Below are positions 39,323-57,800 of a stretch of DNA of 64,000 nucleotides, one piece after another. Every line of letters starts with the position of its first letter. Within the stretch, counting starts at the first letter, position 1. A model generated the notes under the pieces. The model saw only the letters and a program-made list of their open reading frames with translations. It searched no databases and was not told the origin of the DNA. The position numbers were made by a program, and so were the translations under genes. This DNA is from Polyangiaceae bacterium (GTDB taxonomy: Bacteria > Myxococcota_A > Polyangia > Polyangiales > Polyangiaceae), in assembly GCA_041389805.1 (NCBI GenBank), contig JAWKRD010000035.1:18389-82388 (forward strand), in the 5' to 3' direction.

Positions 39323-39811
39323 CTACATGTAGTGCCTGCGGCGGCTCATGAAGCGGCCGGGCGGCGCTTCCGCAAAGCCAAACTTGCGGTACAGCTCGTG
39401 AGCGTCATGGGTGCCGAGCAAGCACAGCCTGAGCGGCTCGAGCTCCGGCTGAGCCAGCACCGTCTTGACCAGCCAGGTGCCTAGGCCACGCCCCCGATGT
39501 TCTTCGCCCACGATCACGTCGCACAGGTAGGCGAAGGTCGCGGCGTCGGTGACCAGCCGCGCGAAGCCGACCTGACGCTCGGGAGCCCCGGCTTGTTCCG
39601 GCAGTTCGTACAAGCCGAAGCACCAGGAGCCGCGCACGGCGCCTTCGACCACCTCGGGCGGGATCCCTTGCGCCCAGTAGCTGTGCTGAAGCTGCCAAGT
39701 GAGCCAGTCGAGCTGGATCCGGGCCCGCTCGGTGCTGATCACGTGAGCACCTTGGGAGCTCTGCCGCGACCAGCGGCGTGGCTCGCCAGTTAGTGAAGCG
39801 ACGTGTTGCAT
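39323..39811 (-). CDS. GNAT family N-acetyltransferase
   Basis: VGFARLVTDAATFAYLCDVIVGEEHRGRGLGTWLV...HELYRKFGF. Confidence 0.7.
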   Translation of the reverse strand: MQHVASLTGEPRRWSRQSSQGAHVISTERARIQLDWLTWQLQHSYWAQGIPPEVVEGAVRGSWCFGLYELPEQAGAPERQVGFARLVTDAATFAYLCDVIVGEEHRGRGLGTWLVKTVLAQPELEPLRLCLLGTHDAHELYRKFGFAEAPPGRFMSRRRHYM

Positions 39812-39927
39812 CCCGCTGATTTGGGGCAACGTACGCGGCACCTCCAGGGACAGCGGCTGAATTGCCTCGTGGACAGACGCGCGCCATGTGGCCCCCACCC
39901 GCGGGCTGGGGTATGCGTTCGGCCGCC

Positions 39928-41130
39928 ATGAGCAACACCTCCGAGCTAGTGCAGGTTGCCAAAGCGAACCTGTATCCGAACTACCGCCAGCCCGATTTGG
40001 TCTTTGGTCACGGTCGTGGAGCCGAGCTCTTCGACCTCGATGGGAAGCGCTACATCGATCTGTTCGCGGGCATCGCCGTGAGCACGCTGGGACACGCTCA
40101 TCCCAAGCTCGTCGCCGCGATCAGCGAACAGGCTGGCAAGCTCCTGCACCTGTCGAACTACTACTACAACGAGCAGAACGTGCGATTGGCCGAGCGCCTG
40201 TGTCGCCTGACCAACATGGAGCGCGCGTTCTTCTGTAGCTCAGGCACGGAAGCCATCGAGGCGATGCTCAAGCTCGCGCGGCGCCACTACTGGGCCAAGG
40301 ATCAGAAAGACCGCGTGCGTGTGATCGCCTTCAACAAGGCGTTCCACGGTCGAACCTTGGGCGCGCTCGCGGCGACTGGTCAGCCGAGCTACCAGGAGGG
40401 CTTCGGTCCGCTCTCTCCGACGACTCACGTCAACTTCGGCGACCTCGACGCGGTGAAGGCGGCGATGGGCGACGACGTGTGCGGCATCATCGTGGAAGCG
40501 GTCCAAGGTGAAGGCGGCGTGACGCCGGCGCCAGAAGGCTTCCTCCAGGGGCTGCGTGAGCTGTGCACGAGCGCTGGAGTGCTCTTGCTCGGCGACGAGG
40601 TGCAAACCGGCGTCGGGCGCTGCGGAACGTTTCTTGGCTTCCAGAGCTTCGGCGTGGAGCCTGATGCGATCGCGCTCGCCAAGGGCCTCGGCGGCGGCGT
40701 GCCGATTGGCGCGATGGCTTGTAAGCCCTTCTTGATCGACGCGTTGCCTCCCGGAAGCCACGGCAGCACCTTCGGTGGTAGCCCGCTTGCGTCGGCAGCA
40801 GCCAACGCCGTGCTCGACGTGATGGAGGAGACCCAGCTGATGGAGCATGTGTCCAAGGTCGGCGGCTACCTTGGTCAGCAACTCGCGAATCTCGCGGAGA
40901 AGCACGGGAAGATCGCCGCTGGCGCACGCGGTCGCGGCCTCTTGCAGGCGCTGGTGCTGAAGGAAGGCGTGGACGCGCGGGGTGTCGTGGAAGCGCTGCG
41001 CGAGAAGGGCGTGCTGGTGACGGTGGCCGGTGGCGTCGCGCTGCGCTTCACTCCGCCCCTCAACATCGAGCAGCCGCTGCTCGACGAGGCGCTGAAGATC
41101 GTCGACGAGGTCCTCGGAGGTGTGGCGTGA
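39928..41130 (+). CDS. argD: Acetylornithine aminotransferase
   Basis: Class-III aminotransferase motifs are present (FCSSGTEAIEAMLKLAR, DEVQTGVGRCGTF, LAKGLGGGVPIGA). The gene sits immediately upstream of argF. Confidence 0.85.
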   Translation: MSNTSELVQVAKANLYPNYRQPDLVFGHGRGAELFDLDGKRYIDLFAGIAVSTLGHAHPKLVAAISEQAGKLLHLSNYYYNEQNVRLAERLCRLTNMERAFFCSSGTEAIEAMLKLARRHYWAKDQKDRVRVIAFNKAFHGRTLGALAATGQPSYQEGFGPLSPTTHVNFGDLDAVKAAMGDDVCGIIVEAVQGEGGVTPAPEGFLQGLRELCTSAGVLLLGDEVQTGVGRCGTFLGFQSFGVEPDAIALAKGLGGGVPIGAMACKPFLIDALPPGSHGSTFGGSPLASAAANAVLDVMEETQLMEHVSKVGGYLGQQLANLAEKHGKIAAGARGRGLLQALVLKEGVDARGVVEALREKGVLVTVAGGVALRFTPPLNIEQPLLDEALKIVDEVLGGVA

Positions 41131-42038
41131 CTCGGCACTTCATTGAACTCGCGGATTTGGGTGAGGGGGGCATCGTGCGCGCCCTGGATAGCGCCGATCG
41201 TTTCCTGGAGACCCGGGGCACCGCGGAGCATCCTCGCCCGCTGACGGGCAAGAGCATCGGCCTGGTGTTCCAGAAGGCCAGCACCCGCACGCGGCTCTCG
41301 CTGGAAGTCGCGGTCAGTGAGCTCGGAGGTCACCCGGTGGTGCTCACCTCGAGCGGCTCTCAGCTGGGGCGCGGTGAGCCGATCAAGGATACGGCGCGGG
41401 TGCTCGGGCGCATGGTGCACGGCATCACCTTCCGCACCTTCAGTCACGCCGAGCTGATGGAGATGGTGGACTACGCCGGTGTGCCGGTGCTCAACGCCTT
41501 GACCGACGCGGGTCACCCGATGCAAATCCTCGCGGATTTGCAGACGGTGCGCCGCAAGCTGGGCAAGCTCGCGGGGCTCAAGTACTGCTGGCTCGGCGAC
41601 GGCAACAACATGGCCAACAGCTGGATAGAAGCGGCGGGCCTCTTGCAGCTGGAGCTCGCCCTGGCGTGCCCCGAGGGTTACGACCCGGATGCTGCCGTGG
41701 TCAGCAAGGCCAAGGAGCGCGGCGCCAGGCTCCGCATCGTGCGGCGCCCCGAAGAGGCGATCGAAGGCGCTGACGTGGTGAGCACCGACGTGTTCACCAG
41801 CATGGGCCAGGAGGCGGAGAGCGCCGCGCGGCTCAAGGCGTTCGCCGGCTACGAGCTGAACGAAGCGCTGCTCGGTAAGGCAGCGGCGAAGTCCATCGTG
41901 CTCCACTGCCTGCCGGCGCACCGCGGAGAAGAAATCTCCGAGGCGGTGCTCGAAGGTCCGCACAGCGTGGTGTGGGACGAGGCAGAGGCGCGGCTGCACA
42001 CTTCCAAGGCGCTCTTCGCCTGGGCGTTTGGTGGCTAG
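41127..42038 (+). CDS. argF: Ornithine carbamoyltransferase
   Basis: FQKASTRTRLSLE, HPMQILADL, CLPAHRGEE. The GTG start overlaps the argD stop. Confidence 0.9.
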   Translation: MTRHFIELADLGEGGIVRALDSADRFLETRGTAEHPRPLTGKSIGLVFQKASTRTRLSLEVAVSELGGHPVVLTSSGSQLGRGEPIKDTARVLGRMVHGITFRTFSHAELMEMVDYAGVPVLNALTDAGHPMQILADLQTVRRKLGKLAGLKYCWLGDGNNMANSWIEAAGLLQLELALACPEGYDPDAAVVSKAKERGARLRIVRRPEEAIEGADVVSTDVFTSMGQEAESAARLKAFAGYELNEALLGKAAAKSIVLHCLPAHRGEEISEAVLEGPHSVVWDEAEARLHTSKALFAWAFGG

Positions 42039-42047
42039 AATTAGCGT

Positions 42048-44327
42048 ATGGATACGGAGCTGACGCCGTCGCCGGCAGCGGGCGCGAGGGACTCCGCGGG
42101 ACTCCTGCGGGTCGCTGAGCGGCCTTGCGACCGCTGCGGCAAGCCCGTCGATCCGCTGCGGGCGCCGCGTGTCGCGATCTTCCATGATCGCTTTCATTAC
42201 TTCTGCTCCGCGGATTGTCGCGAGACGTTCGACCCAGAGAACGCGGCACCGCAGCTGCCTGCGCCGCGGCGCATGGGGGCGCTGCGTCAGGAAGACGTGA
42301 TCGCGACCCTGGCGCAGACTCCGGAAGATCTCGGGTTGCGCCAGAAGACGGCGGAGGCGCTCAGCGAGATCGTCGAGGCGGGTATCGAAGGCGGTGGCCT
42401 CTCGGACTTGGACGAGCTCGGCCCGACGGCAGATCCTCGGGGAACAGCCGTCGAGGTGGTCGAGCCGACGGACCTGCCCACCTTGATGGTCTTGATGGCG
42501 GGCCTCGCGGGCCTGCTGTCGCTCTTGTTGTCCCTTGCGGGTGACTTCCGCGCGTTGATTTTCATCCGCGCGATCGTGTTGGTGGTGGGCAATGCCGCCC
42601 TGGTGGCGCGCTACTTCGCCGGTGCTCGAGACGCGACGGAGCCTCACCCGGCAGCGCTGATGGGCGCGCCCTTGACCGCGGCGTTGGTCACGCTGGGGAC
42701 ATCCCTCAGCTCCGGTCCGAACGAAATCGTCAACGTCGCGGGTGCCGCGCTGGTCGCGAGCGCGGCGGGGATCTGGCTGGTGCAGCGCGCGCGGCGTCCG
42801 ATCGAGGCGGAGCGGGAACACATCCAGACGTCCCTCTCGGCGGCGACACGGCGCGTCGTCGGGCAGGAGCTGGCGCCAGCGACTGCGAACGAACTACATC
42901 CCGGCGAAGAGATCTTGATCGAAGCCGGAGAGACGGTGCCCGCCGACGTCAGCATCATTGCGGGCGAGGCGCAGGTGCTGCCGTGGCTCGGCGCGAACCA
43001 GAGCGAAGCGCGGGGCGAGGGTGACTCCCTGGTCGCAGGCGCGAGGGTCGTGCAGGGTCGGGTCCGCGCGGTGGTCGCGTGGTCGGGTCTCGACCGAGCC
43101 TGGGTACGCTTGACCAACGATCCGCGTCGCCGCGCGGAATTGATTGCGCCCAGCGCGCGCGCGGGTCGCCTGCTCGCCGAGCGCGGCGGTCCTGCGCTCG
43201 GTCTGGTGGCGGGGCTTGCTGCGCTTGCAGCTGGCGCATCCTGGGTCGGTGTCATCGCCTACGTGGTTGCAGCCCAAGCTGCCGTGGCGACGGCAGGTGT
43301 GGCGCAGATCGGTGGACTCCACGTGGGGCTCGGCGTGTTGTCCGCGCTGCGGCGCGGGGTTGCCTACCGCAGCGCTGCGGCGTTCGAGAAGGCGGGACAC
43401 GCGACGGTCGGTGCGTTCTGTGCCCGCGGCACGTTGCTTCTGGGCGAGCCCGAGGTCGCCAGTATCGAGGTGTTCGGCAGCGATCCGCCGGAGCGCATCC
43501 TCGGATGGGTTGCTGGCGCCGAGGCGGGTTCCACACATCCTGTAGCTGTTGCGGTCACCCGCGCCGCGCGAGATCGCGGCGTGCGCGCCGATGGCGTGCG
43601 CAGCTTGACGACTCTGCCCGGGTTAGGCGTCGTGGGCGTCACTTCAGGTGGTGAGGCGCTCGCCGTCGGCAGCCGCGCGCTGATGCTGCGCGAGCGAATC
43701 GGCGTGGCCAGCGCTGAAGCGCGCATCAACGAGCTCGAGGGCATGGGGCGCACGGCGCTCTTGGTCGCGGTGGGCGAGCGCCTGGTCGGCCTGGTGGGCC
43801 TGCAAGATGGCTTGCGGCCTGGTGCGCGCGCGGCGGTGCAGTACCTGCTGGATGCGAGCATCGAGCCGGTGCTGATCAGCGGTGACGCGCGGGAGACCTG
43901 CGAAGCGCTTGGGCGCTCGCTGGACATCGATCATATCCGCCCGGAAATATTGCCGGCGGACCGTGGCGCGGAGATCAAGCGTCTGGCCGATGCTGGAGCG
44001 CAGGTGGTGGTGTTTGGGCGTAGCCCAGCGGATGACGTCGCTTTGGGGGCGGCCGATGTGTCGGTGGCGCTCGCCTCGGCTGGATCGATCAGCGCCGAGT
44101 GGAACGTGCAGCTCGCGACGGACGCGATTCGAGATGCTGCCTTCGCGGTCGCCGTTGCCGGGCGCGCGCGTCGCGAGGCGCGCCTCGGTGTGCTGATCGC
44201 AGTGCTGCCTGGGGTGGTCGGTGTGGCGACGATGGCGGTTGGTGCGTTGAGCCCAGCGGTGACGCCTATCCTGGCGCTGCTTGGGACTGGCGCCGCCGTG
44301 CTGCGGAGCAGCAGCCAGTCCGGTTGA
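42048..44327 (+). CDS. P1B-type ATPase homologue with an N-terminal TRASH-type Cys motif and degenerate catalytic motifs (putative pseudo-ATPase)
   Basis: CDRC-x22-CSADC matches C-x2-C-x19-22-C-x3-C. The A, P and N domains align by eye to CopA-like pumps, but TGES is GANQ, CPC is absent, DKTGT is CARGT and GDGIND is GRSPAD. Confidence 0.75.
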   Translation: MDTELTPSPAAGARDSAGLLRVAERPCDRCGKPVDPLRAPRVAIFHDRFHYFCSADCRETFDPENAAPQLPAPRRMGALRQEDVIATLAQTPEDLGLRQKTAEALSEIVEAGIEGGGLSDLDELGPTADPRGTAVEVVEPTDLPTLMVLMAGLAGLLSLLLSLAGDFRALIFIRAIVLVVGNAALVARYFAGARDATEPHPAALMGAPLTAALVTLGTSLSSGPNEIVNVAGAALVASAAGIWLVQRARRPIEAEREHIQTSLSAATRRVVGQELAPATANELHPGEEILIEAGETVPADVSIIAGEAQVLPWLGANQSEARGEGDSLVAGARVVQGRVRAVVAWSGLDRAWVRLTNDPRRRAELIAPSARAGRLLAERGGPALGLVAGLAALAAGASWVGVIAYVVAAQAAVATAGVAQIGGLHVGLGVLSALRRGVAYRSAAAFEKAGHATVGAFCARGTLLLGEPEVASIEVFGSDPPERILGWVAGAEAGSTHPVAVAVTRAARDRGVRADGVRSLTTLPGLGVVGVTSGGEALAVGSRALMLRERIGVASAEARINELEGMGRTALLVAVGERLVGLVGLQDGLRPGARAAVQYLLDASIEPVLISGDARETCEALGRSLDIDHIRPEILPADRGAEIKRLADAGAQVVVFGRSPADDVALGAADVSVALASAGSISAEWNVQLATDAIRDAAFAVAVAGRARREARLGVLIAVLPGVVGVATMAVGALSPAVTPILALLGTGAAVLRSSSQSG

Positions 44328-44333
44328 GCCAGC

Positions 44334-45074
44334 TCAACGGGGGCGCAACTTAGCGTTGGCTTCGAGCTCGGCGATCGCTTCATCCGTCGTGAGGATCTTG
44401 GCGTAGCGATCGCGCAAGGTGTTCAGCGATGAGTTGTGGAGCTCCGGGGTCACCGTGGCGCAGGCATCCTCAATCACACTCGTGAAGAAGCCGAGATCGC
44501 TCGCGTCGCGCGCGGTCGTCTCGACGCACTCATTGGTGTAGACGCCGCACATGAACAGCGCGGAGATCTCCATGTTGCGCAGCACGAACTCGAGGTTGGT
44601 CGAGACGAAGACGCCGCTCGCGGTCTTGCTGAACACGATCTCGTCGCCTTGAGGTGCAACCTGTTCGATGAACTCCGCGTCTTTCGAGCCCGGCGCGGCG
44701 TGTAGGCCGAGGCGCTTGTGCCCGGGGCTGCGATCGCGGCCATCACGGGTGAGCGACATGATGCGCGTGTGGATCACCTCCAGGTGATGCCCTCGAAACG
44801 CATCCTGCAACCGCCGGATGTTGGGCAGCGTGAGCGTTTCCAAGCGATTGAAGTAGTACTCCTGCGCATCTGCCGGCACGCCGGACTTCATCGCGTCCGC
44901 GAACACTCCATGACCCCGCGCGGCGTCCAGGTACTGCACGTCGATCACCAGCAATGCGACGGTGCGATGCGCGATCGCTTCCTGGGCCTCGGGCGCTTCG
45001 GTGACCGCCTCGCGGTAGACGTCCTTAAGCGGATCGATGTTCGAGGCTGCGTCCAAGCTCAATTCAATTTCCAT
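44334..45074 (-). CDS. Isochorismatase-family cysteine hydrolase
   Basis: VALLVIDVQ..., SKTASGVF, and FMCGVYTNECVETTARDA (catalytic Cys context). I prefer the ATG at 45074 over the track start at 45119. Confidence 0.8.
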   Translation of the reverse strand: MEIELSLDAASNIDPLKDVYREAVTEAPEAQEAIAHRTVALLVIDVQYLDAARGHGVFADAMKSGVPADAQEYYFNRLETLTLPNIRRLQDAFRGHHLEVIHTRIMSLTRDGRDRSPGHKRLGLHAAPGSKDAEFIEQVAPQGDEIVFSKTASGVFVSTNLEFVLRNMEISALFMCGVYTNECVETTARDASDLGFFTSVIEDACATVTPELHNSSLNTLRDRYAKILTTDEAIAELEANAKLRPR

Positions 45075-45108
45075 AGCCTGACTCTTCTGGTTTTTCTTGG
45101 GGGGGAGG

Positions 45109-46368
45109 TCAGCTGGCAAGCCGCTCCAGGGTTCCTAGGAGCACATTCGCGCCAGCTTCGATGGCCTCCCAGGAAGTCCATTCCGCGGGGGAATGACTGC
45201 GGCCATCCTTGCTAGGGACGAAGATCATACCGACGCGGGTCACGTTCGCCAACTGCTGCGCGTCGTGAGCAGCGCCGCTCGGCAAGCGCAGGGCTTCTTC
45301 AGCCAGCGCCTCAGCGCTGCTCGCGATCGCGTCCATCACGCTCGTGTCGCATCTTACTGGCGAGAGCTCGCTCAACACCTCGAACTCGAACATCAGGCCG
45401 CGTCGCCGCGCGATCGCGCTCATGGCTCTGCGAAACGCACCGCCAAGCTCTTCGAGCACTGCGGAGTCGATGTCACGCACCTCCAGGCTGAACTCGGCGA
45501 CGCCCGGGACCACGTTAGGAGCGCCGGGCTGCAGCTGAATGCGTCCGATCGTCGCCACGCTGCGACCGCCGCCGTTTTCCTCGAGGATGCGCGGAATGGC
45601 CATCGATAGCTCCGCCACGCCTTGGAAAGCGTCCTGACGCATGTCCATGGGAGTCGTACCGGCGTGATTCGGCGTGCCGAGGAACTTCACGTTCCACTTG
45701 AACAGCCCCACGATGCCCTCCACCACACCGACCTTCAGGCCACGGCGGTCGAGGACTGGACCTTGCTCGACGTGGAGCTCGACGTACGCGTGGATCGAAT
45801 CCGGGCTGCGCTGCGCGCGTAACAGATGGCTCGCGTCGAGGCCATGGCGCTCCATGGCGTCGATCAGGCGGAGGCCCTGCAAGTCTTTTGCCGTGCGGAT
45901 ACTTTCTGGGGTCAGCTTCCCGGCGAGCGCCATGGACCCGGGCATGCCTCCGAAGCGCCCCTCCTCGTCGGTGAAGCTGATGACCTCGAGAGGGCGCGCT
46001 AGCTCGGCGCCAGATTCCTTGAGGCGCCTGAGGGCTTCGAGACCTGCGAGCACGCCGAGGGCGCCATCTAGATGTCCAGCTCCGGGCACCGAGTCGATGT
46101 GGGAGCCGGTAATCACGCTCGGGCGCTTGCCATCCCAGCCGAGGCGCCCGTGCAGATTCGCGGCCCCGTCGCTGAAGAATTCCAAGCCGGCGTCTTCGAT
46201 GCGCTGCCTCAACCAGGCGCGTGCTTGCATGTCTGCGTCGCTGAACGCCATGCGGTGGATGCCGAAGTCCGCGGCGCGTCCAATGCGCGCGAGGCTCTCG
46301 ATGTCTTCCTGCAGGCGCGGGAAGTTCACTCTGAGTTCGCTCACGAGGAGCTCCTTTCTGCTTTGCAT
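45109..46368 (-). CDS. M20-family amidohydrolase (allantoate / N-carbamoyl-amino-acid amidohydrolase type)
   Basis: GSHIDSVPGAGHLDGALGVLAGLEAL, FTDEEGRFGG, SGAAHDA. Confidence 0.8.
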   Translation of the reverse strand: MQSRKELLVSELRVNFPRLQEDIESLARIGRAADFGIHRMAFSDADMQARAWLRQRIEDAGLEFFSDGAANLHGRLGWDGKRPSVITGSHIDSVPGAGHLDGALGVLAGLEALRRLKESGAELARPLEVISFTDEEGRFGGMPGSMALAGKLTPESIRTAKDLQGLRLIDAMERHGLDASHLLRAQRSPDSIHAYVELHVEQGPVLDRRGLKVGVVEGIVGLFKWNVKFLGTPNHAGTTPMDMRQDAFQGVAELSMAIPRILEENGGGRSVATIGRIQLQPGAPNVVPGVAEFSLEVRDIDSAVLEELGGAFRRAMSAIARRRGLMFEFEVLSELSPVRCDTSVMDAIASSAEALAEEALRLPSGAAHDAQQLANVTRVGMIFVPSKDGRSHSPAEWTSWEAIEAGANVLLGTLERLAS

Positions 46369-46479: not shown

Positions 46480-47259
46480 TTACGAACGCAGGCGGAGCAA
46501 CTGATCGGCAAGCTCTGCGAAGCCAGCGCCCCGAGCGCCGCTGCAGCGGTAGCGTGGCACGACGCTTGGCGCGCCGCTCAGGTTTGCGACGCCTATTGTC
46601 GTGCGGAAAGCGGCGAAGCACGCAGCATCGTTCTCGCTGTCACCGATATACGCGAAGCTTTGCAGCGCGCGCGTGCTGTCGACGCCCTCGTGCTGCGACA
46701 AGAAGGCGACGCTGCCGCTCGCCTTGTCATGGGTGTCGAATGTGATGTGGAAGTGCACACTGGACACCGTCGTGCTGGCGCCTCTGGCTTCCGCTGCGCG
46801 GCGCGCGGCGGCTACTACTTCAGGGTCCACCTTCCGAAACTCACCGATGTCGAACGTGAAGTCGCTGACGCGGCCGTGGACGTCGTCTGCTGGCACCAGC
46901 TCCGAGAACTCCGCCATCAGTCGCTCACTGAGTTCGAGCAGGCGCTCTCGGTGTGCCGCGCGTGTGGCGGTCGGGACAGCGTCCAAACGCCGTACCCTCC
47001 CCCCCAAACGAGCGTGCGCTAGATGACCGTTCTCACTCAGGGCGGCGCGGATGGGCCACATTCCGGCGACTAGCTCACCCCAGCTCGCGGGGCGACCCGT
47101 GACGGCGATTAGCCAAAGATCTGTTTCCGCGAGGTTGCAAAGCGCCTGGTACGCCTTGCGCGTCAGCTGACCGTGGTCGAGCAGCGTGTCGTCCAGGTCG
47201 AAGAGTAGCCCACGGAGTCCCTGGGCTTCTGCCTGGGAGAGCTGTGCGAGAGGCAGCAT
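46480..47259 (-). CDS. HAD-IIB-like hydrolase
   Basis: ATG at 47259 (MLPLAQL...). LLFDLDDTLL, AVTGRP, YIGDSENDA. Confidence 0.75.
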   Translation of the reverse strand: MLPLAQLSQAEAQGLRGLLFDLDDTLLDHGQLTRKAYQALCNLAETDLWLIAVTGRPASWGELVAGMWPIRAALSENGHLAHARLGGRVRRLDAVPTATRAAHRERLLELSERLMAEFSELVPADDVHGRVSDFTFDIGEFRKVDPEVVAAARRAAEARGASTTVSSVHFHITFDTHDKASGSVAFLSQHEGVDSTRALQSFAYIGDSENDAACFAAFRTTIGVANLSGAPSVVPRYRCSGARGAGFAELADQLLRLRS

Positions 47260-48503
47260 CAGTAGCTGCTCACTTGCACTACCAGGTTCGTCAGGTACTG
47301 GCCTTCGGGGAAGGCGGCGGGCACCGGATGGTCCCCTCCCTGGAAGACGCGCTCCAGTACCACCGCCCGGCGACCTGCGTCGCGGGCGCCGAGCGCCATC
47401 GCTCTGCGCAGCTCGAAGAGTCCGATCGCCGCCGAGCAAGAGCAGAGGATGACGATGCCGCCCTGCGTGCAGGTCCGTGTGGCGCCCTGGGCGAGTTTCC
47501 GCATGGCATCGAGCGCCTTGGTCTTGGCGTTGCGGTTCGGTGCCAGCTTGGGCGGGTCACAGATCACCAAGTCGAAGCTCTCCGGCTCGACCTTGTCGAG
47601 GTAGCGCCGCATGTCCTCGCGCTCGAACTGGATGCTGGAGAGTCCGTTGCGCTCTGCCACGCGTCCGCCCACTTCCAGCGCTGGCGCGCTCGAGTCCACC
47701 GCGTGCACGTGCTTTGCGCCGCCGCGAGCCGCCGCAAGGGCCGCACTTCCGACGAAACAATAGCCGTCAAGCACCCGACCGCTGCCTCCGGAGCGCACGT
47801 CGCTCGCGGCGAGCCGCTCGATCACGTCACGCAGCGGACGCTGGTCCAGGTAGTAGCCAGTCTTCTGGGAGAGCTCGCTCGGCAGTTCGAAGTCGAAGCC
47901 GCGCTCACGGAACTGCAGGCTATCCGCTTGGCCGGCGATGAACGTCGGCCCCACCTCGAAGCCTTCAGCCTTCGCCGTGCGCCCGCTGGTGCGGTTGAGG
48001 ATCACCGAGCAGCCGGTCACTTCTTGTAGCGCCGCGCTGATGGTCTCCCGCAATCGGTGCATGCCTCGGGTGCCAAACTGCACGACCAGCGCGTCTCCGA
48101 AGCGATCCACGATCAGCCCGGGAAGCTGATCGCCTTCGGCGTGGATCAGGCGGTAGGCGGTGGTGTCCGCGTTGGGGAACCCGAGCTGGCGCCGAAGCTG
48201 AGCTGCGGCCGAGATGCGCTGGTTCAGCAAGCTCGCGTTTAGGGACTCCTGGCGCCGCGTGAACAGCCGTACCGCGATCGCTGAGCCAGGCGAGTACAGA
48301 CCTCGACCCAGGTGCTGGCCGCGCGGGTCGAACACATCCACTTCGTCGCCCGCGGCCGGCTCGCCCTCGATGCGATCCACGGCTTGAGCGTAGATCCAGG
48401 GGTGCCCGGCCCAGACGGGTTGAACGTGACCAGGCTTGAGTCGCAGCTGTGCAACCACGCTGCTCCCTACCGGCAGTTCACTCTGGTGTAAACGGCTCTC
48501 CAC
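47259..48503 (-). CDS. rlmI: PUA-domain SAM-dependent rRNA (cytosine-C5) methyltransferase, RlmI-like
   Basis: HPWIY, LPGLIVDRFGD, QKTGYYLDQR, DPPKL, CSCS. Confidence 0.75.
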   Translation of the reverse strand: MESRLHQSELPVGSSVVAQLRLKPGHVQPVWAGHPWIYAQAVDRIEGEPAAGDEVDVFDPRGQHLGRGLYSPGSAIAVRLFTRRQESLNASLLNQRISAAAQLRRQLGFPNADTTAYRLIHAEGDQLPGLIVDRFGDALVVQFGTRGMHRLRETISAALQEVTGCSVILNRTSGRTAKAEGFEVGPTFIAGQADSLQFRERGFDFELPSELSQKTGYYLDQRPLRDVIERLAASDVRSGGSGRVLDGYCFVGSAALAAARGGAKHVHAVDSSAPALEVGGRVAERNGLSSIQFEREDMRRYLDKVEPESFDLVICDPPKLAPNRNAKTKALDAMRKLAQGATRTCTQGGIVILCSCSAAIGLFELRRAMALGARDAGRRAVVLERVFQGGDHPVPAAFPEGQYLTNLVVQVSSY

Positions 48504-54800: not shown

Positions 54801-57800
54801 ATGACCGAGTTGCAACCCATTCGACGTTTGGCAATCGTGAACCGCGGTGAGGCCGCGATGCGCTGCATTCGCGCAGTCAAGACGCTGCGCGCCCTCGAGA
54901 ACTCCGAGATCGAAGTGCTCGCGCTGTACACCGCCGTCGATCGCAACGCGCCCTTCGTGCGTCATGCCGACATCGCGGTGATGTTGCCTACACCCGGCAC
55001 GGCAGTGCAGTCGTACCTGAACCACGATCTGTTGCTACGCACACTGGAGCGCCACGGAGTGGACGCGGTTTGGCCCGGTTGGGGCTTCGTCGCCGAAGAC
55101 CCGGTGTTCGTCGATCGCCTGGACGCCGCGAAGATCCGCTTCCTCGGGCCGACCAGCGCCACCATGCGTGCGCTGGGAGACAAGATCGCCTCCAAGGAGC
55201 TGGCCGAGAAGAGCGAGGTGCCGGTCACCAAGTGGAGCAACGGTGTGGTCGCGAGCGTCGAAGAGGCGCGTCGCCATGCGGAAAATATTGGCTACCCGTT
55301 GGTGATCAAGGCCTCCGCGGGCGGCGGTGGTCGCGGTATCCGTGTGGTGCGCGAACCTGGGCAGCTCGAGGCTGCGTTCCGTTCGGCGGCCTCCGAGGCC
55401 CAGGCGGCGTTCGGCGACGGGCGGCTCTTCATGGAGGCCATGGTCCAGGGTGGGCGTCACATCGAGGTACAGATCGTCGCGGACAAGCACGGCAACGTGA
55501 TCGCCTTGGGCTGCCGCGACTGCTCCGTGCAGCGCCGTCACCAGAAGGTAATCGAAGAGGCGCCTCCCGCGCATTTGCCGCCGCTCCTGATCAAAGCCGT
55601 GAAGGACTCGGCGGTGGAGCTGGCGCAGAGCGTGGGCTACTCGGGCGTGGGCACCGTCGAGTTCTTGGTGCGCGACGCGGAATATTTCTTCCTGGAAATG
55701 AACCCGCGCCTCCAGGTCGAGCACGGGATCACCGAGGAGCTGACGGGTACGGAGCTCGTGCAAACGCAGATCCGCATCGCGCGGGGCGAGCGCCTGCCAG
55801 AACTCGACTATCGCGAGCGCGGCTTCGCGATCGAAGCGCGCGTGTGTGCGGAGGACCCCGACGCGGGCTTCCTCCCTGCGCCTGGGCGCGTGGTGCGCTT
55901 CGACCCGGCGCTGGGGCCGCGGCTGCGCATCGACACGGGCGTGGCCTCTGGCAGTGAAGTGCCTGCAGACTTCGACTCCCTGATCGCAAAGGTCATCGCC
56001 TACGGCGACACCCGCGAAGAGGCGCGCGCCCGCCTGGCGTGTGCCCTGCGCGACTTCGATCTCGTGATTGAGGGCGGCGCAACCAACAAGGGCTACCTGC
56101 TCGAGCTGCTCGAGGCTGAGGACTACAAGGCCGGCGGCGTCGACACGCTGTGGCTCGATCGCTGGAACGCCGAGCGCAAGCACACCGATGACCTGGCGAG
56201 CGAAGGCTTGATCCTCGCGGCGCTGCTCTCCTACCAGGTGCAGCGCGAAGTCAAGCGGCTCAACTTCTATGCCGACGCCGCGAACATCACACCAGAGAAG
56301 ATCCCGCCGTCACTCGGCCAGGAGATCGACCTGACGTATCTGGGTAAGCCCTACCGCGTGCGCGTGTTCGCTTCCGGCTCCTGGCAGTACCGCGTGCACC
56401 TGGAAGATCGCGTCGTGGCGGCTCGCATCAACGCCTCCAGCGAGAACGCGGCGCGCCTGGTGATCGGCGACCGCGACCTGCGCGTGCTGTACGACATCAC
56501 CGACACGAACATCCGTGTGGAAATTGAAGGCCGCGTGCACAGCTTCGGTCGCCAGACAGCGGGCCAGGTGTGCGCCAGCGCGCCCTCCATGGTCGTCGCG
56601 CTGCACGTGAGCCTTGGTCAGCGCGTCGAGGCTGGACAACAGCTCGGCCTGGTCGAGGCGATGAAGATGGAGATCGGCTTCGACTCCCCGGTCGCGGGCA
56701 CCGTGAAGGAGATCCGCGCGCGCAAGGGCCAGCAAGTCGCCGCCGGCGATGTCATTCTCGTGATTGACCCCGCGAGCGAGGAAGGCGACGCCGCCGCGAG
56801 TACGCGGCTGGCGCTACCGGTCGTCGAAGACTCCTTGGCGCTGCTCTTCAGCAAAGACGAGCAAGGCAAGCTGGCGGAGCCGAACCTGGCGCGCGCGGCG
56901 GCAGCCCCGGCAGCCGTGTGGCGCCGAGCGATGGACGCGGTCGACGAAGAAGTGCTGCGCATCATGCTCGGTTACGACGCCTTCGATGAGCGCGTGGAGC
57001 GCCTGATTGGTTTCCTCGAGGCACCAATTCCCGACACGATGCCGCCCACCTACCTGAAGCAGCTCGCGGAGGTGAAGCGCCAGCTCGGGGTCTTTGCCGA
57101 CATCGAGCGCATCTTCACCCGTCGTCGCGCGGCGGATGACGCCGGCTCCGTTGGAGCATCCAACAACGCGCGCATGCGTCTCTACGTGCGGCGCCTGCGC
57201 GCCGGTGGCGCCGAGCTGCCCACGGAGTTCCTGGACAACCTGAAGCGTGCACTCGGGCACTACGGCGTTGACTCCCTCGACTACAGCGTGCCCCTCGAGC
57301 GCGCGGTGCTGCGGCTGTTCGCCTCTCAGGGCAATCCTGAGCTGCGCTTCCGCTTGGTGCGCGCGTTGCTCAAGCGCGTGATGCAGCTGGTTGACGCTGG
57401 CTTCGAGCTCGACCGTGACGCGGATCTGCGCCTCGCGCTCTCGAGCATGGCGCAGATGCGCGGTCAGATCCCCGACGACGTCGCGGATGCCGCGATCGAC
57501 GCCGCGTACACCATCTTCGAGCGCCCCGAGCTCAGCCGTCAGGCGGAGCGGACCTCGCGGGGCGTCGAGCAGTGGCTCGAGCGCAGCAACGAAGCGATCG
57601 ACGACTCGGTGCTCGCGGATTTGGCGCTAGCTCCATCCGGGGTGTTCCGTCAGGTCAAGCAGTGGCTGCGCGACGCGCCGATGCGGCAGCGAGGGATCGC
57701 CCTCTCTGCCTGCATTCGCCGCAACTACGCCCCGAAGCAGCCCAGCTCTCAGAGGAGCAAGCGCGTGAGCCTGGGCAACGTCGAAGTTCCCGTTACTCGT

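What the first reader, a model, noticed from the sequence alone, without database searches (positions are those of the whole stretch)
42048..44327. Full-length P1B-ATPase homologue with every catalytic motif lost but a TRASH-type Cys motif kept, directly downstream of argD-argF
The 759-aa ORF aligns by eye to CopA/ZntA-type pumps: actuator, transmembrane, P and N domains, with HP retained in STHPVAV and SGD in LISGD. The functional residues are replaced:
- The phosphorylated Asp motif DKTGT reads CARGT.
- TGES reads GANQ.
- The transmembrane CPC metal site is absent (AGVAQIGG).
- GDGIND reads GRSPAD.

The ORF is nevertheless uninterrupted over 2.3 kb, in a window where other genes do carry frameshifts. 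This argues for selection on a non-catalytic role, such as a metal sensor, scaffold or channel-like protein. The N-terminus carries CDRC-x22-CSADC, a TRASH/YHS-like metal-binding signature. The start lies 9 nt after the argF stop, which suggests co-transcription with arginine biosynthesis genes.
Basis: partly seen in the sequence, partly recalled or inferred. Interest (0 to 1): 0.65.

Follow-up and report, generated by a model that had tools for sequence, protein, structure and literature searches.

The report
Conserved catalytically dead metal-pump homologue
This gene encodes a full-length look-alike of a heavy-metal-pumping ATPase that has lost every residue needed to pump. It is nevertheless kept under very strong selection across a whole class of myxobacteria, next to arginine-biosynthesis genes and usually an iron/metal regulator gene, so it is a real non-pumping protein, probably a sensor or regulator.

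Summary
Window 42048-44327(+) is an intact 759-aa P1B-type ATPase homologue with 8 TM helices, A, P and N domains and an N-terminal Cys4 TRASH/YHS-like domain. DKTGT reads CARGT, TGES reads GANQ, CPC reads AVA and GDGIND reads GRSPAD.

This is not a one-off decay. It is a member of a large Myxococcota family, mainly Polyangia (Sorangium, Polyangium, Labilithrix and many MAGs). All 150 best 50%-identity cluster representatives carry the same substitutions, typically x[C/S][A/S]RGT and G[R/H]xxxDD. All 75 loci not cut by a contig end carry one uninterrupted frame.

dN/dS is 0.021 against a 94%-identical relative, lower than argD or argF. Constraint sits in the cytosolic P/N domains and the four Cys. 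No TM position is conserved family-wide.

argD lies directly upstream in 76 of 80 loci, with argF between in 39. A Fur-family regulator lies directly downstream in 58 of 72 loci, though not in the window's own clade.

Best reading: a membrane-anchored pseudo-pump that keeps nucleotide and metal binding and acts as a sensor or regulator. No description was found in the literature. The function is inferred, not shown.

The parts
42048..44327 (+). Whole 759-aa pseudo-P1B-ATPase ORF
   Evidence: The AF2 model has a P1B fold, and its best Foldseek hits are ZntA, CopA and ATP7B.
42117..42233 (+). N-terminal Cys4 TRASH/YHS-like domain (aa 24-62; C27, C30, C53, C57; DPLRA motif)
   Evidence: The four Cys are 97-100% conserved in 83-89 representatives. 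hhalign against YHS domains of genuine Cu pumps gives prob 97%, E 4e-11. Pfam TRASH-clan hits are all sub-threshold.
42474..42797 (+). TM helices MA, MB, M1, M2 (aa ~143-250)
   Evidence: AF2 helices 143-162, 168-191, 201-221 and 226-263, pLDDT 80-94. Hydropathy peaks agree. No position is >=85% conserved family-wide.
42837..43142 (+). Actuator (A) domain, aa ~264-365. The TGES loop is replaced by GANQ at aa 315-318 (nt 42990-43001), preceded by a near-invariant PW.
   Evidence: PF00122 hit at aa 266-395. Alignments. Family columns.
43149..43352 (+). TM helices M3-M4 (aa ~368-435). The CPC metal site is replaced by A-V-A at aa 412-414 (nt 43281-43289).
   Evidence: The AF2 helix break at 414-415 is retained.
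43419..43433 (+). Degenerate phosphorylation motif CARGT (aa 458-462), aligned to DKTGT
   Evidence: A459, R460, G461 and T462 are invariant in 118 of 118 close members. The Asp position reads C 81, S 28, A 7, N 1, L 1. None of the 150 representatives has DKTGT.
43473..43817 (+). Nucleotide-binding (N) domain, aa ~476-590, with E492, H497-P498, G525xG527 and G541 retained
   Evidence: These align to AfCopA E457, H462, G490, G492 and G501. G525, G527 and G541 are 95-100% conserved, and R518, R543 and E564 are 99% conserved.
43878..43886 (+). SGD (aa 611-613), equivalent to the TGD motif
44016..44033 (+). GRSPAD (aa 657-662), aligned to GDGIND. The first Asp is replaced by Arg/His and the last Asp (D662) is 99% conserved.
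44118..44321 (+). TM helices M5-M6 (aa ~691-758). The YN and MxxSS metal ligands are absent.
   Evidence: AF2 helices 691-730 and 738-758. Alignment to CopA. No conserved positions.
39862..41130 (+). argD (acetylornithine aminotransferase), the conserved upstream operon partner
   Evidence: TIGR00707 at 439 bits, above the cutoff of 410. Upstream on the same strand in 76 of 80 loci and in distant subgroups.
41127..42038 (+). argF (ornithine carbamoyltransferase), 9 nt upstream of the pseudo-pump start
   Evidence: TIGR00658 at 361 bits, above the cutoff of 281. Lies between argD and the pseudo-pump in 39 of 80 loci.

Best explanation
The gene encodes a member of an ancient, Myxococcota-restricted family of catalytically dead P1B-type ATPases, or 'pseudo-pumps'.

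**Shown**
- The protein keeps the complete P1B architecture: a TRASH/YHS-type Cys4 domain, 8 TM helices, and A, P and N domains.
- It lacks the phosphorylated Asp, the TGE dephosphorylation loop, the Mg2+-ligating Asp of GDGxND, the conserved Lys of PxxK (now Arg), and all transmembrane metal ligands (CPC, YN, MxxSS).
- It therefore cannot run the Post-Albers cycle or hold a metal in the membrane.
- It is nevertheless under very strong purifying selection. Constraint is concentrated in the cytosolic P/N headpiece and the four Cys, and no residue is conserved in the membrane helices.

**Inferred**
- The membrane domain serves as an anchor and conformational frame.
- The N domain still binds an adenine nucleotide, because the E..HP, GxG and G signature is kept.
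- The former phosphorylation pocket, now lined by conserved Arg/His (R460, R639, R/H658) plus D662, holds the phosphate tail or another anion without hydrolysis.
- The TRASH domain binds a metal ion.
- Together they form a membrane-tethered sensor or regulatory switch, a pump turned receptor. Its output most likely bears on metal homeostasis, given the recurrent adjacent Fur-family regulator. It is expressed from the argD(-argF) operon.
For: **Motif loss**
- Shown residue by residue against CopA and against real pumps in the same profile columns. No alternative motifs occur elsewhere.

**Family-wide conservation of the substituted motifs**
- Seen in 118 close members and in all 150 top 50%-identity representatives, scoring 1105 down to 307 bits. 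In the two follow-up profile searches (A2, A3), HMA- or YHS-bearing pumps start at 333 bits or below.

**Selection**
- Of the 80 genome loci, five are cut by a contig end; each of the other 75 carries one uninterrupted frame, and no in-frame stop was seen in any.
- dN/dS against L001, with unsaturated dS of 0.175, is 0.021, compared with argD 0.078 and argF 0.052.
- dN/dS is 0.05-0.07 against L002 and L003, lowest in the P/N domains at 0.02-0.04.

**Where conservation sits**
- Across the 150 representatives it lies in the 4 Cys, the DPLRA motif, the A-domain glycines and the P/N residues. No TM helix position reaches 85%.

**Fold**
- AF2 gives 8 TM helices plus A, P and N domains, and Foldseek top hits are ZntA, CopA and ATP7B.

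**N-terminal domain**
- It is homologous to the YHS domains of genuine Cu pumps. A YHS domain has been shown to act as a Cu sensor switching an attached enzyme (PMC4626032).

**Genomic context**
- argD is upstream in 76 of 80 loci, with gaps of 0-51 nt in distant subgroups.
- A Fur-family gene lies within 700 nt downstream in 58 of 72 loci. It also appears in subgroups C and E, in E without argD.
- One locus has an HMA chaperone-like gene adjacent.
Against: - No experiment or ligand-binding computation supports nucleotide or metal binding. The AF2 model is only moderate in the P/N domains (pLDDT 45-75), and I could not inspect its coordinates.
- The His of the HP motif is not universal: 91 of 118 close members have it, and fewer do in distant subgroups.
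- The window's own clade (L001-L006) lacks the Fur neighbour, and no Fur homologue is found in the 64-kb window. Subgroup B has Ser/Thr kinases instead.
- The gene sits in a long conserved housekeeping block (ybeY, HU, lnt, OMP, RlmI-like methyltransferase, HAD-IIB, argD). Synteny may therefore reflect history rather than function.
- The most constant neighbour is argD, for which the sensor model offers no rationale.
Confidence: 0.5

Rival explanations
1. Non-catalytic partner or scaffold. The pseudo-pump heterodimerises with, or docks onto, an active P1B pump, a metallochaperone or a cuproenzyme-assembly factor, and modulates it. This would resemble the way many pseudoenzymes regulate their active paralogues.
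For: - The complete fold, including the MB' platform region with invariant H200-P201 in close members, is retained.
- An HMA chaperone-like gene is adjacent in L083.
- A MopE-like Cu-binding protein lies nearby in L090, as a weak hit.
- The TRASH domain is conserved.
Against: - No active P1B pump gene is found next to it in any of the 92 loci examined.
- TM surfaces are poorly conserved, which is unexpected for a specific intramembrane dimer interface.
Confidence: 0.15
2. Sensor tied to arginine metabolism. The remodelled, Arg-lined phosphorylation pocket binds a free acyl-phosphate or another anionic pathway metabolite, such as carbamoyl phosphate or N-acetylglutamyl phosphate. The protein would report pathway flux, which would explain the operon with argD and argF.
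For: - Linkage to arginine genes recurs in different arrangements: argD upstream in 76 of 80 loci, argF in 39, argH plus an Orn/DAP decarboxylase directly downstream in subgroup D, and an arginine decarboxylase nearby in subgroup F.
- Intergenic gaps are 0-51 nt.
- The nucleophile Asp and Mg2+ ligand are replaced by small residues plus conserved Arg/His.
Against: - This rests purely on structural analogy, with no ligand evidence.
- The arg linkage may be a relic of one ancestral insertion into an arg cluster.
- More distant subgroups have no arg neighbours.
- The model does not explain the conserved metal-binding Cys4 domain or the Fur neighbour.
Confidence: 0.08
3. Passive conduit. Having lost the pump cycle, the 8-TM domain works as a nucleotide- or metal-gated channel or uniporter for a metal ion.
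For: - All eight TM helices and the M4 helix break are retained and under purifying selection (omega 0.04-0.07 in close pairs).
- Polar Q/N/E residues occur in M4 of close members.
Against: - Across the family not one TM position is >=85% conserved, and all canonical ligands are gone. A selective pore would be expected to conserve its lining residues.
Confidence: 0.07
4. Decaying pseudogene or annotation artefact, with no function.
For: Every catalytic motif is lost. The score is far below the NCBIfam cutoff.
Against: - All 75 loci not cut by a contig end carry a single intact frame.
- dN/dS is 0.021.
- The replacement motifs themselves are invariant, with ARGT in 118 of 118 close members.
- The family spans at least 150 clusters at 50% identity.
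Confidence: 0.01

Closest known systems
Canonical P1B-type heavy-metal ATPases (CopA of A. fulgidus and L. pneumophila, ZntA, ATP7A/B)
   Same: - Same overall fold and domain order: N-terminal metal-binding domain, MA/MB plus M1-M6, and A, P and N domains.
- Best sequence hit is 7r0g at E 3e-29. Best structural hits are 4umw, 4bbj and 7r0g.
- HP, GxG and T/SGD signatures are retained.
   Different: - No phosphorylatable Asp, no TGE loop, no CPC/YN/MxxSS metal site and no GDGxND Mg2+ ligand. The PxxK Lys is now Arg.
- Scores 178 bits against the cutoff of 346 for TIGR01525.
- It cannot be a pump.
YHS/TRASH-bearing copper ATPases, and the YHS-domain adenylyl cyclase of M. phlei
   Same: - The N-terminal ~40-aa Cys-rich domain is homologous to the YHS domains of real Cu pumps (P0401-P0404; hhalign 97%).
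- In the M. phlei cyclase a YHS domain works as a Cu2+ sensor switching the attached enzyme (PMC4626032). That precedent fits a sensing role for this module.
   Different: - Here all four ligands are Cys (TRASH type), rather than the Asp plus 3 Cys of YHS.
- There is a family-specific DPLRA motif.
- The attached 'enzyme' is catalytically dead.
FUPA families of Saier's P-type ATPase classification: FUPA24 (CtpH/CtpI), with an N-terminal non-functional type I module, and FUPA32 of Myxococcus xanthus
   Same: [quoted passage not shown] That the N-terminal part is a non-functional type I ATPase module is my recollection of Chan et al. 2010.
- M. xanthus is reported to carry one uncharacterised type-I-topology ATPase of Family 32 (PMC3924187). 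That family could be related to the one described here.
   Different: - FUPA24 keeps a functional pump half. Here the whole protein is dead.
- Whether FUPA32 is this family could not be tested: Chan et al. 2010 is not held, and no named Myxococcus member surfaced in any search.
Transporter-like sensors ('transceptors': Snf3/Rgt2, Ssy1, UhpC). This is an analogy from general knowledge only.
   Same: The concept is the same: a transporter fold that has lost transport and is retained as a membrane-bound sensor.
   Different: Unrelated folds (MFS/APC). No evidence yet that this protein signals.

Membership tests
Functional P1B-type (heavy-metal) P-type ATPase | DKTGT motif with a phosphorylatable Asp | tested here: not met
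   Reads C-A-R-G-T. The Asp column is C/S/A/N/L in 118 members. No DKTGT occurs in any of the 150 representatives or elsewhere in the protein.
Functional P1B-type (heavy-metal) P-type ATPase | TGE(S/P) dephosphorylation loop in the A domain | tested here: not met
   Reads G-A-N-Q. The family consensus is PW[L]GA...
Functional P1B-type (heavy-metal) P-type ATPase | Transmembrane metal site: (C/S/T)P(C/H) in M4, plus M5/M6 ligands | tested here: not met
   CPC reads A-V-A and YN reads P-G. The MxxSS region reads GTGAA by inspection of the sequence beyond the end of the CopA alignment. No TM position is >=85% conserved.
Functional P1B-type (heavy-metal) P-type ATPase | GDGxNDxP Mg2+/phosphate-binding motif and the PxxK Lys | tested here: not met
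   Reads GRSPADD, with the first Asp replaced by Arg/His. PxxK reads PADR, and R639 is 91% conserved.
Functional P1B-type (heavy-metal) P-type ATPase | 8-TM topology with A, P and N domains; N-domain HP and GxG nucleotide signature | tested here: met
   AF2 secondary structure and Foldseek hits. STHP, GLG and G541 align to CopA SEHP, GEG and G501.
Functional P1B-type (heavy-metal) P-type ATPase | Curated NCBIfam score threshold (TIGR01525, 346 bits) | tested here: not met
   178 bits.
HAD-superfamily phosphotransferase (as annotated: 'HAD family hydrolase') | Motif I nucleophilic Asp (DxD/DxT) | tested here: not met
   The Asp is absent. The PF00702 match begins at model position 10, after the nucleophile.
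TRASH/YHS metal-binding domain | C-x2-C-x19-22-C-x3-C ligand pattern with an FCS-type second half | tested here: met
   C27-x2-C30-x22-C53-x3-C57 with YFCS. The four Cys are 97-100% conserved.
TRASH/YHS metal-binding domain | Significant match to curated domain models | tested here: inconclusive
   DUF7576, TRASH_HVO_1752_C, zf-FCS, Arc_trans_TRASH and YHS all hit but fall below their gathering scores. Profile-profile comparison against YHS domains of real pumps is significant (97%, E 4e-11).
TRASH/YHS metal-binding domain | Actual metal binding | not testable with these tools
   Requires metal analysis of purified protein.
FUPA32 (TC 3.A.3.32) | Sequence membership in the TCDB family typified by a Myxococcus xanthus protein | not testable with these tools
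   Only an indirect mention is available (PMC3924187). The defining paper is not held, and 'FUPA32' occurs in no held paper.

The most novel reading that the evidence does not exclude
This is the first recognised pseudoenzyme clade of the P-type ATPase superfamily. An ancient myxobacterial P1B pump has been converted into a membrane-tethered receptor. It senses a cytosolic metal through its TRASH domain and a nucleotide or acyl-phosphate through its remodelled, Arg-lined phosphorylation pocket. It passes this signal to the neighbouring Fur-family regulator, or to nitrogen/arginine metabolism. That would link metal status to amino-acid biosynthesis in a group of bacteria with very large genomes.
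Probability: 0.3. Interest if true: 0.8.

Novelty: new variant of a known kind. Interest (0 to 1): 0.7.

Why it matters
P-type ATPases are among the most motif-invariant enzyme superfamilies. A 2014 survey found DKTGT in 99.77% of identified members and only 22 sequences with point changes (PMC3896382).

A deep family of at least 150 clusters at 50% identity has replaced all catalytic and ion-binding motifs with its own invariant residues, and evolves at dN/dS of about 0.02. This shows that the P-type fold can be reused for something other than pumping.

Four consequences follow.
- It offers a natural experiment on which parts of the headpiece matter when there is no catalysis.
- It offers a candidate new type of membrane-bound metal or nucleotide sensor.
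- It provides a clean marker gene for Polyangia.
- It corrects current annotations ('Cu+-exporting ATPase', 'HAD family hydrolase', 'cation-translocating P-type ATPase'), which would inflate metal-resistance inventories in metagenomes.

Tried and rejected
**Alternative placement of the motifs**
- A regex scan and three independent alignments (phmmer to PDB, MAFFT of 118 members, hmmalign with real pumps) found no intact DKTGT, TGES, CPC or GDGxND.

**Decay hypothesis**
- Rejected by the intact frames in all 75 loci not cut by a contig end and by dN/dS.

**Cys/Ser at the Asp position as a substitute nucleophile**
- Rejected. The column also holds A, L, Q, N and T, and there is no CX5R-type context.

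**Literature**
- I searched for pseudoenzyme plus P-type ATPase, TRASH/YHS plus Sorangium, FUPA, FUPA32, and 'lacking the DKTGT'. No description of this family was found.
- Chan et al. 2010, which defines FUPA32, is not held.

**Extending taxonomy to cultured Myxococcus**
- The last two protein searches and three cluster look-ups returned only Myxococcota or 'Deltaproteobacteria' MAG names, plus Sorangium and Polyangium isolates.
- Presence in Myxococcia remains unresolved.

**Fur in the window**
- tblastn with the L021 Fur at 1e-5 finds none.

**M20 peptidase downstream as ArgE**
- Rejected. It is an allantoate amidohydrolase/carbamoylase-type enzyme.

**Structure**
Full report
**Observation**

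Window 42048-44327 (+) is a single 759-codon ORF starting at an ATG. That ATG lies 9 nt after the stop of the preceding ORF.

The protein matches Pfam Hydrolase (PF00702) and E1-E2_ATPase (PF00122). Among NCBIfam models its best match is the heavy-metal P-type ATPase subfamily TIGR01525, but at 178 bits against a curated cutoff of 346.

Its best solved relative is A. fulgidus CopA (7r0g, E 3e-29). The printed alignment places FCARGT opposite FDKTGT, LGANQ opposite the TGE loop and A-V-A opposite CPC. It places GRSPAD opposite GDGIND and PADR opposite PxxK, while STHP matches SEHP and SGD matches TGD.

Genuine pumps aligned to the same family profile show TGES, CPC, DKTGT, EHP, TGD, PxxK and GDGxND in exactly these columns. 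A regex scan finds no such motif anywhere else in the protein.

The protein contains six cysteines. Four of them form C27-x2-C30-x22-C53-x3-C57.

**Not a one-off: a large conserved family**

A search of 5.8 billion proteins returned more than 300 relatives. The best 120 are nearly all full-length (four are under 700 aa) and mostly 50-55% identical. Those that carry names come from Polyangiaceae/Sorangiineae MAGs and are labelled 'HAD family hydrolase', 'cation-translocating P-type ATPase' or 'Cu+-exporting ATPase'.

In a MAFFT alignment of 118 full-length members the replacement motifs are themselves conserved:
- F-[C81/S28/A7]-A-R-G-T-L-L, with A, R, G and T in 118 of 118.
- P-W-[L]-G-A in place of TGES.
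- G-[R]-S-P-x-D-D in place of GDGIND.
- S-G-D in 114-118 of 118, and H-P with H in 91 and P in 115 of 118.
- The four N-terminal Cys in 112-118 of 118.

A profile search of 1.84 billion 50%-identity representatives gave 2229 hits at E<=1e-30. All 150 listed, from 1105 down to 307 bits, have an x[C/S/A]xRGT-type sequence and none has DKTGT, TGES, CPC or GDGxND. In the two follow-up profile searches built from distant family members (A2, A3), HMA- or YHS-bearing pumps begin at 333 bits or below.

Several subgroups can be recognised by motif flavour. Examples are GHPxxDD/STHPF, GTSPRDD/VHHP and LC[ST]HGTVT/LLSGDH.

Every named member is from Myxococcota or carries a legacy 'Deltaproteobacteria' MAG label. 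Cultured representatives are Sorangium spp. and Polyangium spp..

**Selection**

Of the 80 genome loci retrieved, five are cut by a contig end. Each of the other 75 carries one uninterrupted frame over the whole gene, and no in-frame stop was seen in any locus.

The closest relative is L001, at 94% DNA identity and dS of 0.175, so it is not saturated. Against it the gene has 5 amino-acid differences in 759 codons and dN/dS of 0.021. That compares with 0.078 for argD and 0.052 for argF.

Against L002 and L003, where dS is about 1 and so imprecise, omega is 0.05-0.07. The P/N domains are lowest at 0.02-0.04.

Across the 150 divergent representatives, the positions conserved at >=85% fall into three groups:
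- the four Cys and a DPLRA motif in the N-terminal domain;
- structural Gly/Asp residues of the A domain;
- a dense set in the P and N domains, namely G461, T462, R518, G525, G527, G541, R543, E564, D587, E606, S611, G612, R615, H629, R631, R639, G657, D662 and L666.

Not one position inside the eight TM helices reaches that level.

**Structure**

An AF2 model built from a 26-sequence alignment has pLDDT 70 and pTM 0.60. It has eight long helices at the expected places, including a break in M4 where the CPC proline would sit, a beta-rich A domain and Rossmann-like P/N domains. The P/N confidence is only moderate.

Foldseek against the PDB returns ZntA, CopA and ATP7B as top hits, with the best TM-score to AfCopA 7r0g.

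**N-terminal domain**

Single-sequence Pfam hits are all below gathering thresholds: DUF7576, TRASH_HVO_1752_C, zf-FCS, Arc_trans_TRASH and YHS.

A profile of ten family N-termini aligns to a profile of YHS domains from genuine Cu+ pumps (P0401-P0404, P0425) with 97% probability and E 4e-11.

The family has four Cys (TRASH type), where YHS has Asp plus three Cys. A YHS domain has been shown experimentally to act as a copper sensor that switches an attached enzyme (PMC4626032).

**Genomic context**

In the window the order is:
- a Ser/Thr kinase (+);
- a GNAT (-);
- argD (+, TIGR00707 at 439 bits, above the cutoff);
- argF (+, TIGR00658 at 361 bits, above the cutoff);
- the pseudo-pump (+);
- an isochorismatase-family hydrolase (-);
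- an allantoate-amidohydrolase-type M20 enzyme (-);
- a HAD-IIB hydrolase (-);
- an RlmI-like methyltransferase (-);
- an OMP beta-barrel (+).

Across the 80 genome loci, argD lies upstream on the same strand in 76. Of the four exceptions, two are contig-truncated and two have argF. argF lies between argD and the pseudo-pump in 39 loci, and in 37 argD abuts the pseudo-pump directly, as in all Sorangium genomes.

The argD-to-pseudo-pump junction, with gaps of 0-51 nt, persists in divergent subgroups B and C and in a further Myxococcota MAG. In subgroup D the gene is instead followed directly by argH and an Orn/DAP decarboxylase.

A Fur-family regulator (PF01475, E 3e-37; closest to Fur models but below their cutoffs) lies within 700 nt downstream in 58 of the 72 loci with enough flank. 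It is on the same strand in 46 and convergent in 12, including Sorangium. It also follows the pseudo-pump in subgroups C and E, in E without any argD.

The window's own clade (L001-L006) has lost this neighbour. No Fur homologue is detectable in the 64-kb window.

Other neighbours are seen occasionally:
- an HMA chaperone-like gene;
- Ser/Thr kinases;
- a NUDIX gene.

The gene also sits in a long conserved block of housekeeping genes: ybeY, HU, lnt, OMP, RlmI-like, HAD-IIB, argD, and grpE/dnaK. Part of the synteny may therefore be historical.

**Mechanism**

The following is shown:
- There is no nucleophile Asp, and the column is variable (C/S/A/L/Q), so a replacement nucleophile is unlikely.
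- There is no TGE loop and no Mg2+-ligating Asp.
- There are no membrane metal ligands.
- Phosphoenzyme formation, the E1/E2 cycle and occlusion of a metal ion are therefore all excluded.

The following is inferred:
- The adenine-pocket residues of P1B N-domains (E..HP, GxG, G) are retained, as are SGD, the GT of DKTGT and the last Asp of GDGxND. The lost Asp, Lys and Thr positions are replaced by conserved Arg/His (R460, R639, R/H658). The headpiece therefore probably still binds a nucleotide or another phosphorylated ligand, without turning it over.
- The invariant Cys4 domain probably binds a metal.
- The membrane domain, which is conserved as helices but not in sequence, serves as anchor and frame.

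I therefore read the protein as a pump converted into a membrane-tethered sensor or switch. The Fur neighbour and the TRASH domain point to metal homeostasis as the most likely output.

Confidence differs by claim. That it is a selected, non-pumping pseudo-ATPase: above 0.9. That it is specifically a metal/nucleotide sensor: about 0.5 including the generic 'regulatory' reading, and about 0.3 for a Fur-linked sensor.

The rivals are:
- a scaffold or regulator of active pumps or chaperones (0.15);
- an arginine-pathway ligand sensor (0.08);
- a passive channel (0.07, disfavoured by the lack of any conserved TM residue);
- a decaying relic (0.01, refuted).

**Comparison with what is known**

The family works like nothing yet characterised among P-type ATPases. 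It fails four of the defining features of a functional P1B pump while meeting the fold criteria, so it should not be filed or annotated as a Cu+/Zn2+ ATPase or as a HAD hydrolase.

A 2014 survey found DKTGT in 99.77% of identified P-type ATPases (PMC3896382). A recent review of open questions in the field does not mention dead members (PMC10654040).

The Saier classification lists an uncharacterised type-I-topology 'Family 32' ATPase in Myxococcus xanthus (PMC3924187). That family may be related, but I could not test this: the source paper is not held and 'FUPA32' occurs in no held paper.

No paper describing loss of catalysis in this family was found.

I rate it a new variant of a known kind, with interest of 0.7.

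Noticed in passing
P0400 (metagenomic protein, 811 aa, 4.5-kb JGI contig): A partly degenerate relative, possibly an evolutionary intermediate. It keeps DKSGT, TGD, PxxK and GDGVAD, but lacks CPC, TGES and HP. It carries both an HMA domain and an N-terminal TRASH-like domain with the same DPLRA..VAI..YFCS signature as the pseudo-pump family.
   Followed up: partly
L021:8084-8719, L085:5529-5981, L088:9194-9682, L089:3561-4088 and 58 of 72 genome loci: A Fur-family regulator with HHDH and two CxxC motifs lies immediately downstream of the pseudo-pump in most lineages, but not in the window's clade. Its subfamily (Fur, Zur or PerR) is unresolved: the best NCBIfam hits are Fur models, below their cutoffs.
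   Followed up: partly
L061-L079 (Sorangium complete chromosomes): In every complete Sorangium chromosome the gene sits about 9.7-12.2 kb from coordinate 1 of the record, downstream of dnaK(-) and argD. grpE/dnaK also flank it in L085 and L091. This suggests an old conserved core block.
   Followed up: no
window 44334-46368 (-): In the window's clade the Fur position is occupied by an isochorismatase-family hydrolase and an allantoate-amidohydrolase/N-carbamoyl-amino-acid-hydrolase-type M20 enzyme (NF006771, 512 bits). Both are convergent with the pseudo-pump, and the hydrolase ORF ends 6 nt after its stop.
   Followed up: partly
L087:9211-11888: In a distant subgroup (Myxococcota MAG) the pseudo-pump is followed 5 nt later by argH (Lyase_1 plus ASL_C2) and an Orn/DAP/Arg decarboxylase. 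This is a second, independent junction with arginine/lysine biosynthesis genes.
   Followed up: no
P0380, P0419, P0430, P0435-P0437, P0440, P0449: P-type ATPases of about 900-1100 aa fused to a Band 7/HflK domain (PF01145), from Acidobacteria, Holophagales, Planctomycetes and Kiritimatiellae MAGs. Some are annotated only as 'FtsH protease activity modulator HflK'.
   Followed up: no
window 40875-42821 (-), and the overlap of 46480-47439 (-) with 47259-48503 (-): A 648-aa antisense ORF spans argD, argF and the pseudo-pump. It is a typical high-GC shadow ORF and I regard it as not a gene. The first-start ORF calls for the HAD-IIB and RlmI-like genes overlap by 181 nt, so the HAD-IIB start is probably further downstream.
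   Followed up: no
L001:3286-3850 vs window 39323-39898 (-): Relative to the window, the 94%-identical MAG L001 has an uncompensated 1-nt indel inside the GNAT gene. The window copy is full-length, like L002 and L003, so any frameshift is in L001 rather than in the window.
   Followed up: partly
window 54801-60416 (+): A very long ORF (1871 aa) lies further downstream in the window. It was not examined.
   Followed up: no
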